This document shows positions 40,650 to 44,808 of a stretch of 64,000 bases of DNA, one piece after another (within the stretch, counting starts at the first letter, position 1; each line of letters begins with the position of its first letter). The DNA comes from an uncultured Phycisphaeraceae bacterium (GTDB lineage Bacteria; Planctomycetota; Phycisphaerae; Phycisphaerales; Phycisphaeraceae). The position numbers and the translations under genes were made by a program. The notes beneath the pieces are model-generated. The model was not told the DNA's origin, made no database searches, and saw only the letters and a list, made by a program, of their open reading frames with translations. The stretch spans positions 12,732-76,731 of the forward strand of contig CAYRTH010000002.1 of the NCBI GenBank assembly GCA_964427135.1, read 5' to 3'.

Positions 40650-41735
40650 ATGTCCACCATTGACCTCACATTCCCGCAGCATCGTTACACCGTATACATC
40701 GCCCCCGGCTTGTTGCAGCAGGCCGGCTCACTCATGAAGCAGGTTGTGCCGCATGGTCAGGCCGCCCTGTTCATGGATGCAACCGTGGCCCCCCTGCATG
40801 GTCCAGCCGTGCAACAAGCATTGGTTGCTGCCGGGTATCAGGTGGTCAGTCACGCCGTGCCCAACGGCGAGGAACATAAAAACCTGGAAACGGTGCGCGG
40901 GTTGTACGAGGTGATGCTCGACGCCAAGTTGGAACGTAAAAGCCCGGTCGTGGCACTGGGCGGCGGGGTGTTGGGCGACACCGCCGGGTTCGCGGCGGCC
41001 ACGTATTTGCGGGGTGTGCCGTTGGTACAGATACCCACGACGTTACTGGCGATGGTGGATTCATCGGTGGGGGGCAAGGTGGGGGTGAATGTGCCACAGG
41101 GCAAAAATTTGATTGGGTCGTTTCATCAGCCGGGGTTGGTGGTGATCGATCCGCAGACGTTGCTGACGCTGCCCTTGCGCGAATTGCGCTGTGGTTTGGC
41201 GGAGTGTGTGAAGCATGGGGTGATTCGTCAGCCGGGCAAGTTTGTGTGGTTGAGTGAGCAACTTGAAAAAGTGATGAAGTTGGAGGTAGAGACGTTAGCG
41301 GAATTGGTGGATTGGAATGTGCGGATCAAAGCTGATGTGGTGATGAAGGACGAAAAGGAGACGGGGGAACGGGCACACCTGAACTTCGGCCACACCTTTG
41401 CGCATGCGATCGAAGCAACCGCCGGTTACGGGACGTTTCATCATGGCGAAGCGGTGTCGCTGGGGATGGTGGCAGCCACGACCCTGGCGGTGAATATCGG
41501 TCGATGTGAGCGGGGGGTGTTGACGGAACTGGTGCGTTTGCTGGAACGCATCGGGCTGCCGGTACGGGCGGACAATTTGCCGGTGGTGGATGTGTTGATG
41601 CAGGCGATGACGCTGGACAAAAAGGTGGCCGGGGGCGTGGTGCGATTGGTGTTGCCGATGAAAATGGGCCAGGTGGTGGTGACGACGGATGTGCCGGGCC
41701 GTGAGATTGAAAAAGCCTGGCAGGCGATACGATGA
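40650..41735 (+). CDS. aroB: 3-dehydroquinate synthase
   Basis: 361 aa with GGGVLGDTAGFAAATYLRGV, VDSSVGGKVGVN and HGEAVSLGM. Confidence 0.92.
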   Translation: MSTIDLTFPQHRYTVYIAPGLLQQAGSLMKQVVPHGQAALFMDATVAPLHGPAVQQALVAAGYQVVSHAVPNGEEHKNLETVRGLYEVMLDAKLERKSPVVALGGGVLGDTAGFAAATYLRGVPLVQIPTTLLAMVDSSVGGKVGVNVPQGKNLIGSFHQPGLVVIDPQTLLTLPLRELRCGLAECVKHGVIRQPGKFVWLSEQLEKVMKLEVETLAELVDWNVRIKADVVMKDEKETGERAHLNFGHTFAHAIEATAGYGTFHHGEAVSLGMVAATTLAVNIGRCERGVLTELVRLLERIGLPVRADNLPVVDVLMQAMTLDKKVAGGVVRLVLPMKMGQVVVTTDVPGREIEKAWQAIR

Positions 41736-42322
41736 ATTTCGGATTTAGCGGGACGACCCGCTGTTGAAGCCGTCGGATTTCGGATTTTGAATTGATGTTT
41801 GATGTTTAGCGCGGACGCTTCGCGTCGGCGTGCTTGATGCCGTGCCCTTCAGGGCCGGATTCGGGGTATGAAATCCGGGGCTATAGCCCTCGGCGTCAGT
41901 GTGTGTCGTGGCATCACCGCATTCGACGATGTGACAAAGCCGCCGATGGCATCGGCGGTCGGTTTGACTCGATGAGTGACAAATCAAGGATGCAATCAAG
42001 ACGGCGGATACCATCCACCGCTTTGTGAATCACACCGCCGAGGGCGGCGGTGCCACAATCAAAATACGCGCGGGTGCCTGTGGCACGTCTGCGTGCCACA
42101 GAAGCTTGTTGCTGTGGGCAGGCAAAATCGCCTGCCCACAGGCACCCAGGGCAAACAGGTATCATTCACGCGACCACTTCTTTTTACCGATTCGCCGATT
42201 CACCGCGCAGAATACCCAGGCCCTCGACCTCCCCCGGGGATCGGTCTCGTTCCCGGCTTGGTAAATCCGAAATTCGAATTTCGACGGCTTCAACAGCGGG
42301 TCGTCCCGCTAAATCCGAAATT
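41735..42322. mobile_element. About 588-bp composite non-autonomous element bounded by perfect 41-bp terminal inverted repeats
   Basis: 41735-41775 is the exact reverse complement of 42282-42322. The interior is built from other repeat families (41835-41898, 41936-42025, 42028-42057, 42072-42146, 42210-42281). No ORF with coding character. Confidence 0.75.
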
Positions 42323-42330
42323 TTTCTTCC

Positions 42331-44808
42331 TCAAATCCCCAAGGCACTGCGCCGCAATAATTCCTTCACACCGCTCGGCCGTTGCACCTGATACCCCGAG
42401 AGCGGAATCACATGTTCATGAATCGCGTCGAGTATGTCATTGGTGAACGGGAAGAAAGTATCTTCCACCTCATCAGCCGGGGTGATCCAATTCCGTGCCC
42501 CCACCACCACCGGCGGAGCATCCAACTCATCAAACGCAAGCTGCGTGATTTTCGCTGCCATCGTCTGCAACACACTGCCCCGTTCACACGCATCGCTGGC
42601 CAGTACGATCTTGCGCGTCTTTTTCACCGATTCCAACACCAGCGTGTAATCAAAGGGCACAATGCTGCGGGCGTCGATCACTTCCACCGACAACCCATAC
42701 TGTTCCTCCAACACCTTGGCAGCCTCCAGCGCCCGATACAACGTCGCACCCACGGTCAAAATCGTCAGGTCCTTGCCGACCTTTTTCACGTCAGGCTGAC
42801 CCATCGGTATTTCGTATCGACCTTCGGGCACTCCGCCAGCCGCAAACATCTCCGGCATGTCGTACAGCCGTTGACTTTCGAAAAACACCACCGGGTCTGT
42901 GCCCAGCAGTGCCGAGTACATCAAACCCTTGGCGTCATACGGCGTGGCCGGGAACACCACCTTCAATCCCGGAATATGCGCACACAAAGCCGTCCAATCC
43001 TGACTGTGCTGCGCCCCGTATTTACTGCCCACCGACACCCGCAACACCACCGGCATCTTCAACAACCCGCCCGACATCGACTGCCACTTGGCGAGCTGGT
43101 TGAATATTTCATCGCCCGCCCGGCCCATGAAATCGCAGTACATCAATTCCACCAGCGGCCTGCCACCTTCCAACGCATACCCCACCGCCGATCCGACAAT
43201 CGCGCCTTCACTGATCGGTGAGTTAAACAGCCGATGGTAAGGCAACGCCTCGGTCAACCCGCGATACACCGCAAACGCCCCGCCCCAGTCACGGTTTTCC
43301 TCCCCGTAAGCCACCAGCGTCGGGTCGGTGTAAAACATATCCAAAATCGCTTCAAACAAAGCGTCGCGCATCAGTATGCACTTGCTCTTGGCAACAGGTT
43401 TGCCCGACGCATCAACCCCATTGCGCGACTTACCCACCAAACTTTTACTGCGCGGGTTGTCCGCTTTGTTTTCAATCAACACCTCCGGCTTACGGTCTTC
43501 CAACTTTTCCATACGACCGTTGGAAAACATCGTCTGTTCCAGCAAATTGCCCGGCTGCATCAGGTCCGCACGGGGGCTGATCTTCAAATCGATCGCCTTC
43601 TGATAACAACGCAGCATCATCGCATCGATGCCCGCCTTCATCGCATCGATGTCGCCCTGCTTGCACACGCCCGCTTCGACCAGTTGCTGACCGAACACAT
43701 GCAACGGGTCCTGCTGCTGCCAGGCTTCGACTTCCTGTTTGTCACGGTAGCTCGACGCATCCGACGGCGAATGCCCTGAAAACCGGTAGGTGACCGTATC
43801 CAGCAACACCGGGCCGTCGCCTTTTTCGATGATCGCTTTTTTCCGACCGATGGCATCGACCACCGCCAGCGGGTTGAAGCCGTCGATGCGCTCGGCGTGC
43901 ATCTGATTAGGGCACAACCCGGCACCCAGCCTTGCCAGCATTTTGAAACCCATGGTTTCGCCCACGGGTTGGCCGCCCATCCCGTAAAAGTTGTTGACGA
44001 AATTGACGATCAGCGGCAGGCCGTGTTTGTGGGCCCCGGTCCACAGTTCCTTGAACTGGTCCATGGTGGCAAAGCAAAGCCCTTCCCACACCGGCCCGCA
44101 CCCAGCCGAGGCATCGCCGATGTTGGCGATCACCACCCCCGGTTTGCGATTGACATGTTTGAACAGGGCTGCCCCGACCGCGATGTCGCCCGATCCGCCG
44201 ACGATGGCGTTGTTGGGGTAAATGCCAAAGGGCGGAAAGTAGGCGTGCATCGACCCGCCCAACCCTTTGTTGAACCCGGTTTCGCGAGCGAAAATTTCCG
44301 CCAATGCCCCGTACACCAGGTAATCAATCGCCAGTTCGCGCGTCGTGCCTTTGAACCCCTGTTCGACGACTTTGAGGCACTGCCCGCCGAAGTAATCTTT
44401 CATCAGGCTCATCAGCCGGGCGTCGTCGAGCTTGGCGATGGCGGACAAACCCTTGGCCAGAATTTCACCATGACTGCGGTGCGAACCATAAATATGGTCA
44501 TCGACGGTCAGCAAATACATTTCGCCCACGGCTGTCGCTTCCTGTCCGATCGACAGATGCGCCGGCCCGCGATGGTTGTATTCAATCCCCTGATAGTTGC
44601 CCTGACGCTTGACGCTGTCGAGCATCATTTCAAAGGCGCGAATCACCATCATGTCGAACTGAATGCGCAACAAGTCGGCTTTGGTGAACCTGCCGCCGAC
44701 CAATTCGTCCTTGATCGACCGGTCATAGCTGTTGACCGGGATGGGCTGAAAGGTGATCTGCGCTTTGCTGCGCGCGGTTTTGGGGTCGATCATGATACTT
44801 TTGGGCAT
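42331..44808 (-). CDS. Fused E1 alpha-beta subunit of a 2-oxoacid/acetoin-type dehydrogenase complex (TPP-dependent)
   Basis: 825 aa. The N-half is E1-alpha-like ([23 protein letters not shown]). The C-half is E1-beta-like ([25 protein letters not shown], transketolase C-like end). Confidence 0.85.

What the first reader, a model, noticed from the sequence alone, without database searches (positions are those of the whole stretch)
41735..42322. Entire aroB/E1 convergent spacer is a 588-bp composite bounded by perfect 41-bp terminal inverted repeats
41735-41775 (aatttcggatttagcgggacgacccgctgttgaagccgtcg) is the exact reverse complement of 42282-42322. The left arm begins inside the aroB stop codon, and the right arm ends 8 nt before the stop of the E1 gene. 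Between the arms there is no coding-like ORF. There are only copies of at least five other repeat families: the TGACGCCG palindrome, the two-hairpin 90-bp element, CACACCGCCGAGGGCGGCGGTG, GGTGCCTGTGGCAC and the GGGTAT/CAAGCC core. This looks like a non-autonomous element that has become a nest for further insertions, or like a structured RNA/DNA locus. Each arm also contains its own hairpin (GCGGG-ACGA-CCCGC).
Basis: seen in the sequence. Interest (0 to 1): 0.6.

Follow-up and report, generated by a model that had tools for sequence, protein, structure and literature searches.

The report
Two gene-end hairpin repeats facing each other
The perfect 41-bp "terminal inverted repeat" is real, but it is not the two ends of one mobile element: it is two separate copies of a tiny (27-nt core) hairpin repeat that this bacterium carries just behind many stop codons, one behind each of two converging genes, with ordinary REP-type repeats between them.

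Summary
Observation confirmed: 41735-41775 is the exact reverse complement of 42282-42322, extending to 59 nt at 92%. The spacer is almost entirely repeats from at least 9 families.

The "588-bp composite with TIRs" reading does not hold as a unit.
- The arm is a ~30-copy family in this Phycisphaeraceae genome, and copies occur singly.
- 23 of 30 copies lie co-oriented just behind a stop codon. In a congener the figure is 27/37, against 8/37 in a flipped control.
- Each arm sits inside a polar (AATTTCG)n heptamer array that starts at or near the stop.
- Two convergent genes that each carry the module therefore produce an inverted repeat.
- No second copy of the composite exists, and it has no target-site duplication.
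- The congener has no arm at either gene end, and aroB and E1 are not neighbours there.

Four filled/empty orthologous pairs define the variable unit as a 27-nt insert, TAGCGGG-NNNN-CCCGCTGTTGAAGCCG. It splits one heptamer (ATT^TCG) without duplication. Only 1 of 23 occupied sites is shared between the congeners.

The interior is a BIME-like mosaic. Families F and G bracket their own RAYT genes elsewhere in the genome, and 42072-42147 is a REPIN-type doublet.

The interior is ordinary. The 27-nt insert into stop-anchored heptamer arrays resembles cyanobacterial small dispersed repeats and is moderately novel. The scan had already noted heptamer arrays at gene ends in this window.

The parts
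40650..41735 (+). aroB (3-dehydroquinate synthase); its TGA overlaps the first base of the left arm
   Evidence: Pfam DHQ_synthase and DHQS_C, E 1e-46 and 1e-44; ORF list
41735..41793 (+). Left arm: heptamer unit(s) ATTTCGG, 27-nt core, then heptamers GATTTCG GATTTTG. It is co-oriented with aroB.
   Evidence: the family architecture (AATTTCG)n-core-(GATTTCG)n is seen in all 31 copies
41746..41772 (+). Left 27-nt core TAGCGGGACGACCCGCTGTTGAAGCCG (7-bp hairpin, 4-nt loop, conserved single-stranded tail). This is the unit that is present or absent between congeners.
   Evidence: Filled/empty pairs; hairpin pair counts 95.5% paired, 4 of 7 pairs with double changes, 0/500 shuffles; fold
41802..41898 (+). 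Families B + B' + C, a three-hairpin unit of about 97 nt that travels together. B' and the reverse complement of C are related (TGAyGCCG-hairpin-CCGGAT), forming an inverted doublet.
   Evidence: 109/163/177 copies in G000; at least 40 copies of the 97-nt unit at 80-89% in congener G001; fold -47.5 kcal/mol, z -2.3
41935..41960 (+). Family D hairpin (GCCGCCGAT-GGC-ATCGGCGGT)
   Evidence: 91 copies; fold z -2.3
41998..42027 (+). Family E hairpin
   Evidence: 90 copies
42031..42057 (+). Family F REP (CACCGCCG-AGGG-CGGCGGTG). Copies bracket a RAYT-like gene on contig C147.
   Evidence: 213 copies, orientation 35:35 in co-directional spacers; five F copies around C147:4074-4688; that protein scores 79.3 bits on NF047646 REP-associated tyrosine transposase, cut-off 80
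42072..42147 (.). REPIN-type doublet. It consists of family G (+) and variant H (-), which share the head GGGTGCCTGTGG. The cognate RAYT gene on contig C134 is bracketed by inverted G copies.
   Evidence: Inverted repeats I4 and I5; fold -56 kcal/mol, z -6.1; G copies flank C134:2999-3553; that protein scores 90.7 bits on NF047646, cut-off 80
42148..42205 (.). Non-repeated stretch, possibly a remnant of the original spacer
   Evidence: 0-1 genomic hits per position
42212..42262 (-). Family I (CAAGCC...GGGTAT), the commonest downstream partner of the arm. Here it follows the right arm in that arm's own orientation.
   Evidence: 34 copies; follows the arm in 11/31 copies in G000 and 24/41 in G001
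42264..42322 (-). Right arm: heptamers plus 27-nt core (42285-42311), co-oriented with E1
42331..44808 (-). Fused E1 alpha/beta 2-oxoacid dehydrogenase; its stop lies 8 nt from the right arm
   Evidence: Pfam E1_dh, Transket_pyr, Transketolase_C

Best explanation
The 588-bp spacer is not one element. In this Phycisphaeraceae genome many genes are followed, at or within about 30 nt of the stop codon, by a strand-polar tandem array of the heptamer AATTTCG/GATTTCG. In about 30 of these arrays a 27-nt hairpin unit (TAGCGGG-NNNN-CCCGCTGTTGAAGCCG) sits inside one heptamer (ATT^TCG), always in the same orientation relative to the array. aroB and E1 converge and each carries such a module behind its stop. 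The two modules therefore face each other and read as a perfect inverted repeat. Both copies are near-consensus and so probably young. Neither is present at the orthologous gene ends of the congener. The space between them has been filled by REP/REPIN-type hairpin families, at least two of which (F and G) have their own RAYT transposase gene elsewhere in the genome. The result is a BIME-like mosaic, as is usual for convergent spacers.

Shown: copy numbers, polarity, the exact 27-nt indel, rapid turnover, a maintained hairpin and tail, and the RAYT linkage of F and G.

Inferred: how the 27-nt unit spreads. I judge two routes about equally likely. One is strand-specific, duplication-free insertion at ATT^TCG by a HUH/Y1-type single-strand transposase acting in trans. 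The other is copying from a filled array into an empty one by gene conversion or template switching, using the heptamers as homology.

Inferred: its effect on the host, namely a REP-like RNA hairpin directly after the stop codon that could alter mRNA 3'-end stability or termination-coupled events. If either gene is read through, the two arms would close a duplex of about 57 bp.
For: The arm has 30-31 copies in G000, all single except for this locus. 23 of 30 are co-oriented behind a stop, mostly within 41 nt (binomial p=0.005). In G001 the figure is 27/37 in the true orientation against 8/37 flipped (p=2e-5). There are 272 heptamer arrays, 162 co-oriented behind stops; 70% of those lie within 30 nt of the stop, against 1.3% in the flipped control, and many start inside TGA. 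Four filled/empty orthologous pairs show the same 27-nt indel at ATT^TCG with no duplication. The aroB end in G001 has an intact ...GCATT TCGG... where G000 has the core. Only 1 of 23 G001 arm sites is occupied in G000. aroB and E1 lie on different contigs with different neighbours in G001. The hairpin is maintained, with compensatory changes, and the tail is about as conserved as the stem. The core occurs in 10 of 144 family genomes, 9 of which also have arrays, while arrays occur in 41 of 144. Nothing longer than about 100 nt of the spacer recurs. F and G bracket RAYT-like genes. The literature reports REPs as mainly downstream of genes, in convergent and unidirectional spacers, with several families per genome, and present in Planctomycetes (PMC3733652).
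Against: This is the only spacer in the genome with two arms. Under independent placement on gene ends about 0.06 such spacers are expected, so some local copying is implied; arms do cluster (5 pairs within 5 kb against 1.0-1.6 expected, p=0.004-0.015). [quoted passage not shown] Gene calls were crude longest-ORF calls, so 7 'start abuts' and 5 'inside' cases may be miscalls in either direction. No transposase is linked to the arm: none of the 8 Y1 genes of G000 is bracketed by it, and G001, with 49 copies, has only two weak Y1 hits. The direction of the indel (insertion or precise excision) is not resolved.
Confidence: 0.85

Rival explanations
1. One reading: a 588-bp non-autonomous transposon (MITE-like) whose 41-59-bp terminal inverted repeats are recognised by a transposase, and whose interior later became a nest for REP insertions.
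For: Perfect 41-bp inverted termini. The interior is entirely repeats. One other '+ ... -' arm pair exists 1.8 kb apart on C70. Arms cluster locally.
Against: There is no second copy of the unit, or of any part longer than about 100 nt. There is no target-site duplication. 28 of 30 arm copies are solitary. Arm orientation is predicted by the adjacent gene, not by a partner arm. The unit that varies between congeners is 27 nt. No DDE or other transposase with matching ends was seen.
Confidence: 0.05
2. A selected structural locus: the two arms exist in order to pair, either in RNA from read-through of the convergent genes or as a DNA cruciform. They would close a giant stem-loop serving as a bidirectional transcription barrier or an RNase III site.
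For: In a single strand the arms pair into a stem of about 57 bp. Whole-spacer MFE is -314 kcal/mol against -222 for shuffles, z -11. There is no intrinsic terminator beyond chance in the spacer (1 found, 1.2 expected), so some other way of ending transcription is needed.
Against: The arrangement is unique in the genome. Both arms, and the aroB/E1 adjacency itself, are absent in the congener. The high stability is an automatic result of stacking palindromic repeats. No covariation between the arms can be assessed because they are identical.
Confidence: 0.07
3. The arm is not mobile at all. It is an old, selected 3'-UTR regulatory motif (a protein- or RNA-binding site) inherited vertically and lost repeatedly by slippage within the flanking heptamer arrays.
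For: The stem and tail are strongly conserved across genera. Placement relative to stop codons is strict. The flanking tandem repeats could promote deletions.
Against: Only 1 of 23 sites is shared between congeners whose coding DNA is 79-92% identical. Copies within a genome are about 88% identical on average over 41 nt and many are 40/41. The same 27-nt boundaries recur at four loci with only a 1-nt flanking repeat, which slippage would not give. The distribution is patchy among and within genera.
Confidence: 0.1

Closest known systems
BIMEs / REP clusters of Enterobacteria and the GTAG/CGTC REP super-families (Gilson et al. 1991, from my own knowledge; Di Nocera et al. 2013, PMC3733652)
   Same: The spacer is an extragenic mosaic of short GC-rich hairpin repeats from several families in mixed orientation, lying downstream of genes in a convergent spacer. 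PMC3733652 reports REPs as mainly downstream of coding regions, with several families per genome, and present in Planctomycetes.
   Different: The sequences are unrelated. Many more families are packed into one spacer (at least 9). Only some units carry a GTAG head. IHF or gyrase binding, as reported for E. coli BIMEs, cannot be tested here.
REPIN-RAYT systems (Bertels & Rainey 2011, PMC3116915; Nunvar et al. 2010, from my own knowledge)
   Same: Families F and G bracket Y1-transposase genes that match NCBIfam 'REP-associated tyrosine transposase'. 42072-42147 is an inverted REP doublet that forms one long hairpin.
   Different: There are at least 6 differently bracketed Y1 genes in a 3.3-Mb genome. 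The arm family itself has no bracketed RAYT in G000 or G001.
Small dispersed repeats (SDR) of Nostocaceae (Elhai et al. 2008, Genome Res 18:1484). The paper is not held; its gist comes from my own knowledge and from citing papers PMC5861425, PMC2884548 and PMC3116915.
   Same: A unit of about 20-27 nt with no coding capacity is found inserted inside another short repeat (SDR5 in HIP1; here the core in a heptamer). It is present or absent between relatives, and no transposase has been identified.
   Different: The phylum and sequence differ. Here the host repeat is a stop-codon-anchored heptamer array, so the guest inherits a strict 3'-of-gene polarity. PMC5861425 states that no SDR-like repeat was found outside the Nostocaceae among the HIP1-rich cyanobacterial genomes it examined.
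Intergenic heptamer tandem repeats: cyanobacterial STRR (from my own knowledge) and TAACTGA repeats of Beggiatoaceae (MacGregor 2015, PMC4679880)
   Same: Hundreds of short, strand-polar heptamer arrays lie next to gene boundaries, with a patchy phylogenetic distribution.
   Different: TAACTGA arrays lie mostly just upstream of start codons. The AATTTCG arrays here lie just downstream of stop codons, often starting inside TGA.
IS200/IS605-type 'peel-and-paste' single-strand transposition (established mechanism, from my own knowledge)
   Same: Insertion is orientation-specific, leaves no target duplication, occurs next to a short fixed target sequence, and involves a hairpin in the moved DNA.
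   Different: There is only one hairpin and 27 nt in total, and no linked transposase gene. Enzymatic involvement is an inference.

Membership tests
MITE / composite non-autonomous transposon (the whole 588 bp) | The same TIR-bounded unit is present at several genomic sites | tested here: not met
   The genome-wide blast of the spacer finds no hit longer than about 100 nt other than itself. Arm copies elsewhere are solitary.
MITE / composite non-autonomous transposon (the whole 588 bp) | Target-site duplication flanking the TIRs | tested here: not met
   The flanks are ...GATACGATG | arm and arm | TTTCTTCCTC, with no direct repeat.
MITE / composite non-autonomous transposon (the whole 588 bp) | Empty site in a relative lacking exactly the unit | tested here: inconclusive
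   In congener G001 aroB and E1 are on different contigs with other neighbours, so no orthologous junction exists.
REP / REPIN-RAYT (interior families F and G) | Short palindromic repeat in high copy number, mainly extragenic | tested here: met
   F has 213 copies and G has 38. Most are intergenic and enriched in convergent spacers. The hairpins fold stably.
REP / REPIN-RAYT (interior families F and G) | Copies flank a RAYT (Y1 HUH transposase) gene | tested here: met
   C147:4074-4688 is flanked by 5 F copies. C134:2999-3553 is flanked by inverted G copies. On NF047646 the proteins score 79.3 and 90.7 bits (cut-off 80), against 20-25 bits on the IS200 model. The F-linked protein is 0.7 bit under the cut-off.
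REP / REPIN-RAYT (interior families F and G) | Two REPs in inverted orientation forming one hairpin (REPIN) | tested here: met
   42072-42147: G and rc(H) share the head GGGTGCCTGTGG. The segment folds at -56 kcal/mol, z -6.1.
REP / REPIN-RAYT (interior families F and G) | Unpaired GTAG or CGTC tag at one end | tested here: inconclusive
   G begins GGGTGCC and F is followed by GCCACAAT, so neither has a GTAG tag. The hairpin that partners F at the RAYT locus does carry one (TGTAGCCCAGCC). Definition from PMC3733652.
REP / RAYT (the arm core itself) | Copies flank a RAYT gene | tested here: not met
   None of the 8 Y1 loci in G000 has an arm within 600 nt. The two weak Y1 hits in G001 are not next to arms. 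The assemblies are 93% complete, so a missing gene cannot be excluded.
REP / RAYT (the arm core itself) | GTAG or CGTC tag adjacent to the stem | tested here: not met
   The 5' side is TTAG and pairs into the stem. A CGTCG lies 9 nt 3' of the stem, not adjacent to it.
Small dispersed repeats (SDR-like) | Unit of about 20-27 nt, dispersed, non-coding | tested here: met
   The unit is 27 nt by filled/empty comparison, with 27-46 copies per genome.
Small dispersed repeats (SDR-like) | Found inserted within another repeated sequence; present or absent between relatives | tested here: met
   It is always inside a heptamer array. Four clean indels were found. 1 of 23 sites is shared between congeners.
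Small dispersed repeats (SDR-like) | Sequence homology to the Nostoc SDR families | not tested
   The Elhai et al. paper and its sequences are not held. The resemblance is one of behaviour, not shared ancestry.
Rho-independent terminator | GC-rich hairpin followed by a T/U run | tested here: not met
   The arm hairpin is followed by GTTGAAGCCG. The scan finds 1 terminator-like site in the spacer against 1.2 expected in shuffles, and it is not in an arm.
Known RNA families (Rfam) | A match at the family's gathering score | tested here: not met
   The only hit is tfoR at 24.2 bits against a gathering score of 70, over the G/H doublet.

The most novel reading that the evidence does not exclude
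The 27-nt hairpin unit is a genuinely mobile element, among the smallest described. It inserts site- and strand-specifically into one position of a heptamer (ATT^TCG) without target duplication. Its host arrays are themselves an invasive, stop-codon-anchored repeat system in some Phycisphaeraceae lineages. Together, in the order octamer array, heptamer array, 27-nt hairpin, CAAGCC...GGGTAT element, they would form a layered and polar '3'-UTR cassette' that is written behind genes by an unknown mechanism and may act on mRNA ends.
Probability: 0.3. Interest if true: 0.65.

Novelty: new variant of a known kind. Interest (0 to 1): 0.45.

Why it matters
For this locus, the result removes a false lead. 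A perfect long inverted repeat around a repeat-filled spacer need not be a transposon. It can arise automatically when two convergent genes each carry the same polar 3'-end repeat.

More broadly, it shows that a planctomycete lineage holds an unusually rich set of REP/RAYT systems. It also holds a two-layer repeat system whose placement is tied to stop codons, and a 27-nt unit with exact, duplication-free boundaries in heptamer arrays.

That gives a concrete, testable substrate for two old questions. How do very small repeats without their own enzyme spread? What do extragenic hairpins directly after stop codons do to mRNA?

Tried and rejected
- Rfam scan of the spacer gave only a sub-threshold tfoR hit. 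Rejected as noise over a REP doublet.
- Pfam scan of four spacer ORFs gave nothing.
- The terminator and promoter scan found nothing above chance.
- I looked for the orthologous spacer in 80 aroB loci from the species collection. The best aroB is only about 60% identical and none of those loci has E1 nearby. The collection was therefore useless for empty-site analysis, and I used the same-genus genome G001 instead.
- I tested whether the two arms are a local duplicate of each other. Neighbouring pairs are not more alike than random pairs, so this cannot be shown.
- I tested whether a RAYT is linked to the arm, with negative results in G000 and G001.
- Integron attC was considered because attC sites also lie 3' of genes and are co-oriented with them. 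I rejected it by inspection. The core is 27 nt with one perfect 7-bp stem. GTTGAAG matches GTTRRRY at only 6 of 7 positions. There is no inverse core site. The carrier genes are dispersed housekeeping genes, not cassette arrays.
- The Elhai et al. 2008 paper could not be read.
- My first regular expression for collecting cores was one base short; it was redone correctly.
Full report
1. THE OBSERVATION

The window sequence, the repeat finder and a pattern search agree. 41735-41775 is the exact reverse complement of 42282-42322 (41/41, against none in 100 shuffles). The complementarity runs on to 59 nt at 92% (41735-41793 with 42264-42322).

They are aroB (40650-41735, +; Pfam DHQ_synthase) and a fused E1 alpha/beta dehydrogenase (42331-44808, -). 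The left arm starts on the last base of the aroB TGA. The right arm ends 8 nt from the E1 stop.

ORFs inside the spacer lie over repeats, and the four I scanned have no Pfam match. Rfam gives only a sub-threshold hit (tfoR, 24 bits against a gathering score of 70).

2. THE SPACER IS A MOSAIC OF INDEPENDENT FAMILIES

The window is contig C2:12732-76731 of a 3.29-Mb, 239-contig, 56% GC assembly.

I blasted the 588 bp against the whole genome. Almost every position belongs to a short repeat family:
- the arm: about 27-31 copies
- B: 109 copies
- B': 163 copies
- C: 177 copies
- D: 91 copies
- E: 90 copies
- F: 213 copies
- G: 38 copies
- H: 7 copies
- I: 34 copies

Only about 41904-41930 and 42148-42205 are unique. 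No hit other than the locus itself exceeds about 100 nt, so the composite is not repeated as a unit. Nearly all modules are stable hairpins.

3. WHAT THE ARM IS

All 31 copies in this genome share one architecture: (AATTTCG)n, then TTTAGCGGG-NNNN-CCCGCTGTTGAAGCCGTCG, then (GATTTCG)n. Apart from this locus they occur singly.

Polarity in this genome, using crude longest-ORF gene calls:
- 23 of 30 copies lie co-oriented directly behind a stop codon, mostly within 41 nt (binomial p = 0.005).

Polarity in congener G001, which has 49 copies. I fetched 40 regions holding 41 copies:
- 27 of 37 evaluable copies follow a co-oriented ORF of at least 100 codons that ends within 120 nt.
- Only 8 of 37 do so when the element is flipped (Fisher p = 2e-5).

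The heptamer arrays show the same rule more strongly:
- There are 272 arrays of at least 2 units.
- 162 are co-oriented behind a stop.
- 70% of those lie within 30 nt of the stop, against 1.3% in the flipped control.
- Many begin inside the TGA (TGAATTTCG...).

The inverted repeat at aroB/E1 is therefore what must appear when two convergent genes each carry the module. Each arm is oriented by its own gene.

4. THE VARIABLE UNIT IS 27 NT

In G001, aroB (80% nt identity) and E1 (89%) lie on different contigs, each with more than 1.5 kb beyond the stop. Neither stop is followed by an arm. Behind aroB, G001 reads TGA TTTTTGC ATT TCGG AATTGATGTTTAGCG... At that point G000 has the 27-nt core (TAGCGGGACGACCCGCTGTTGAAGCCG) and further heptamers between ATT and TCGG.

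I then took 23 G001 arm-bearing gene ends with clear G000 orthologs (79-92% nt identity). Only one is occupied in G000. Several others carry a plain heptamer array.

Pairwise alignment gave four clean cases: L106/C98, L112/C149, L115/C24 and L125/C56. All four have the same indel, TAGCGGG-NNNN-CCCGCTGTTGAAGCCG, lying between ...RATT and TCGRATT... One heptamer is split, with no duplication beyond an ambiguous T.

In window coordinates the cores are 41746-41772 (+) and 42285-42311 (-).

5. CONSTRAINT ON THE CORE

I used 54 distinct cores from three genomes. The 7-bp stem is paired in 95.5% of cells. Four of 7 pairs show double-sided changes, and no shuffle out of 500 reaches any measure. The loop is free to vary. 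The single-stranded tail TGTTGAAGCCGTCG is about as conserved as the stem.

Across 144 genomes of the family:
- The core is found in 10 genomes, spanning 8 genera. In other genera the top stem pair is swapped (GCGGC...GCCGC) while the tail is unchanged.
- Heptamer arrays occur in 41 genomes, spanning 20 genera.
- Nine of the ten core-bearing genomes have arrays.
- Several array-rich genomes have no core (for example 141, 83 and 87 array matches).

The core therefore looks like a guest of the arrays. Both layers are patchy even within genera. The 70%-complete congener G002 has neither.

6. HOW SPECIAL IS THIS PAIR?

It is the only 41/41 pair of 465. However, 13 other pairs are 40/41, and each window arm is 40/41 to copies on other contigs. 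So these are two near-consensus copies.

It is the only doubly occupied convergent spacer. By my own arithmetic, about 0.06 such spacers are expected if about 30 arms fall independently on about 2650 gene ends with 452 convergent spacers (background). Arms are locally clustered: 5 pairs within 5 kb against 1.0 expected on gene ends (p = 0.004) and 1.6 expected on heptamer sites (p = 0.015). Some local copying is therefore likely. Local pairs are not more similar than random pairs, though (p = 0.28).

The spacer itself is a lineage-specific junction. G001's aroB neighbours map to G000 contigs C68 and C148, and E1's downstream neighbour maps to C103. Only DeoR-E1 is conserved.

7. THE INTERIOR

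The genome has 8 matches to Y1_Tnp (PF01797) over the cut-off. At least six of these genes are bracketed by their own repeat family.

Spacer family F, with a GTAG-headed partner hairpin, surrounds the gene at C147:4074-4688. Inverted copies of family G flank C134:2999-3553. Both proteins match NCBIfam 'REP-associated tyrosine transposase' far better than the IS200 model. They score 79.3 and 90.7 bits against a cut-off of 80, compared with 20-25 bits on IS200.

42072-42147 consists of G plus an inverted variant H that shares the head GGGTGCCTGTGG. This is a REPIN-type doublet (-56 kcal/mol, z -6.1).

B+B'+C travels as a unit of about 97 nt, with at least 40 copies in G001. F and G show no orientation bias (35:35 and 7:5), and F, E and G are enriched in convergent spacers.

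This is the known picture of REP/BIME clusters. PMC3733652 reports REPs as mostly downstream of genes, between convergent or unidirectional ORFs, with several families per genome, and seen in Planctomycetes.

8. MECHANISM

Shown: the polarity, the exact indel, the turnover and the constraint.

Inferred, how the 27-nt unit spreads:
(a) A HUH/Y1 single-strand transposase acts in trans. This would explain strand specificity, the fixed target and the lack of duplication, as in the IS200/IS605 family (established knowledge). No such gene is linked to the arm, and G001 has few Y1 genes.
(b) Gene conversion or template switching from a filled array to an empty one, using the heptamers as homology. 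This needs no enzyme of its own. It explains the exclusive residence in arrays, the co-travelling neighbours (family I follows the arm in 11/31 and 24/41 copies) and the local clustering. On its own it does not explain conservation of the stem and tail across genera.

Inferred, effect on the host: a REP-like RNA hairpin immediately after the stop. There is no intrinsic terminator in the spacer beyond chance. In one continuous strand the arms would close a stem of about 57 bp (MFE -314 kcal/mol, z -11). This follows automatically from the sequence and is not conserved.

9. COMPARISON AND NOVELTY

The interior is a new member of a known kind (REP/REPIN/BIME).

The arm is closest in behaviour to the small dispersed repeats of the Nostocaceae. 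Those are about 20-27 nt, are inserted in other repeats such as HIP1, and have an unknown mechanism. Citing papers give the gist, but the original paper was not held.

Its host arrays resemble other intergenic heptamer systems. The difference is position: they sit behind stop codons, whereas TAACTGA repeats sit in front of start codons (PMC4679880).

I rate the whole finding as a new variant of a known kind. The specific claim that was handed to me, a TIR-bounded composite element, is not supported.

10. LIMITS

- Gene calls were crude.
- The assemblies are fragmented MAG-like drafts in which repeats and repeat-flanked genes may be missing.
- The direction of the 27-nt indel is unresolved.
- Earlier notes of this scan on the same window had already remarked that heptamer arrays litter gene ends and start at stop codons. 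I tested and quantified that here.

Noticed in passing
G000 contigs C147:4074-4688, C134:2999-3553, C13:15788-16327, C227:143-670, C99:5568-6347, C60:17143-17844 (outside the window): At least six Y1/RAYT-like genes in a 3.3-Mb genome are each bracketed by a different repeat family (about 11 to 200 copies each). That is an unusually large number of parallel REP-RAYT systems for one small genome, and it is in a planctomycete.
   Followed up: partly
genome-wide; e.g. upstream of arm copies on G000 C1:51604, C70:3954, C9:25164; window right of 41735 not affected: A second tandem 'word', the octamer GTGGYCRA (AAGTGGTCGAGTGG...), often lies between the stop codon and the heptamer array. This gives a recurrent order: stop, octamers, heptamers, 27-nt core, heptamers, then family I (CAAGCC...GGGTAT) or family B.
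   Followed up: partly
Family-wide search: The heptamer arrays are very patchy. There are hundreds of matches in G000, G001, G065, G125, G140 and G146 but none in most genera. None occur in the same-genus genome G002 (70% complete). This suggests lineage-specific bursts or horizontal spread of the whole repeat system.
   Followed up: no
window 40650-41735 (aroB) versus G001 C64: aroB has different neighbours on both sides in the two congeners. G001's flanking genes map to G000 contigs C148 and C68. The repeat-filled spacers therefore coincide with synteny breakpoints.
   Followed up: partly
L110 (G001:C25:53-2154), cores at 853 and 1323 of the contig: Two arm copies lie 470 nt apart in direct orientation behind consecutive ORFs. 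They have identical cores and identical flanks, including the following family-I element. This looks like copying of a segment larger than 27 nt.
   Followed up: no
genome-wide: 63 of 272 heptamer arrays fall inside my crude ORF calls. Others are probably gene-call errors.
   Followed up: no
L094 2744-2843 (G001:C64): A run of about 100 N interrupts the repeat mosaic downstream of G001 aroB, so that spacer could not be read completely.
   Followed up: no
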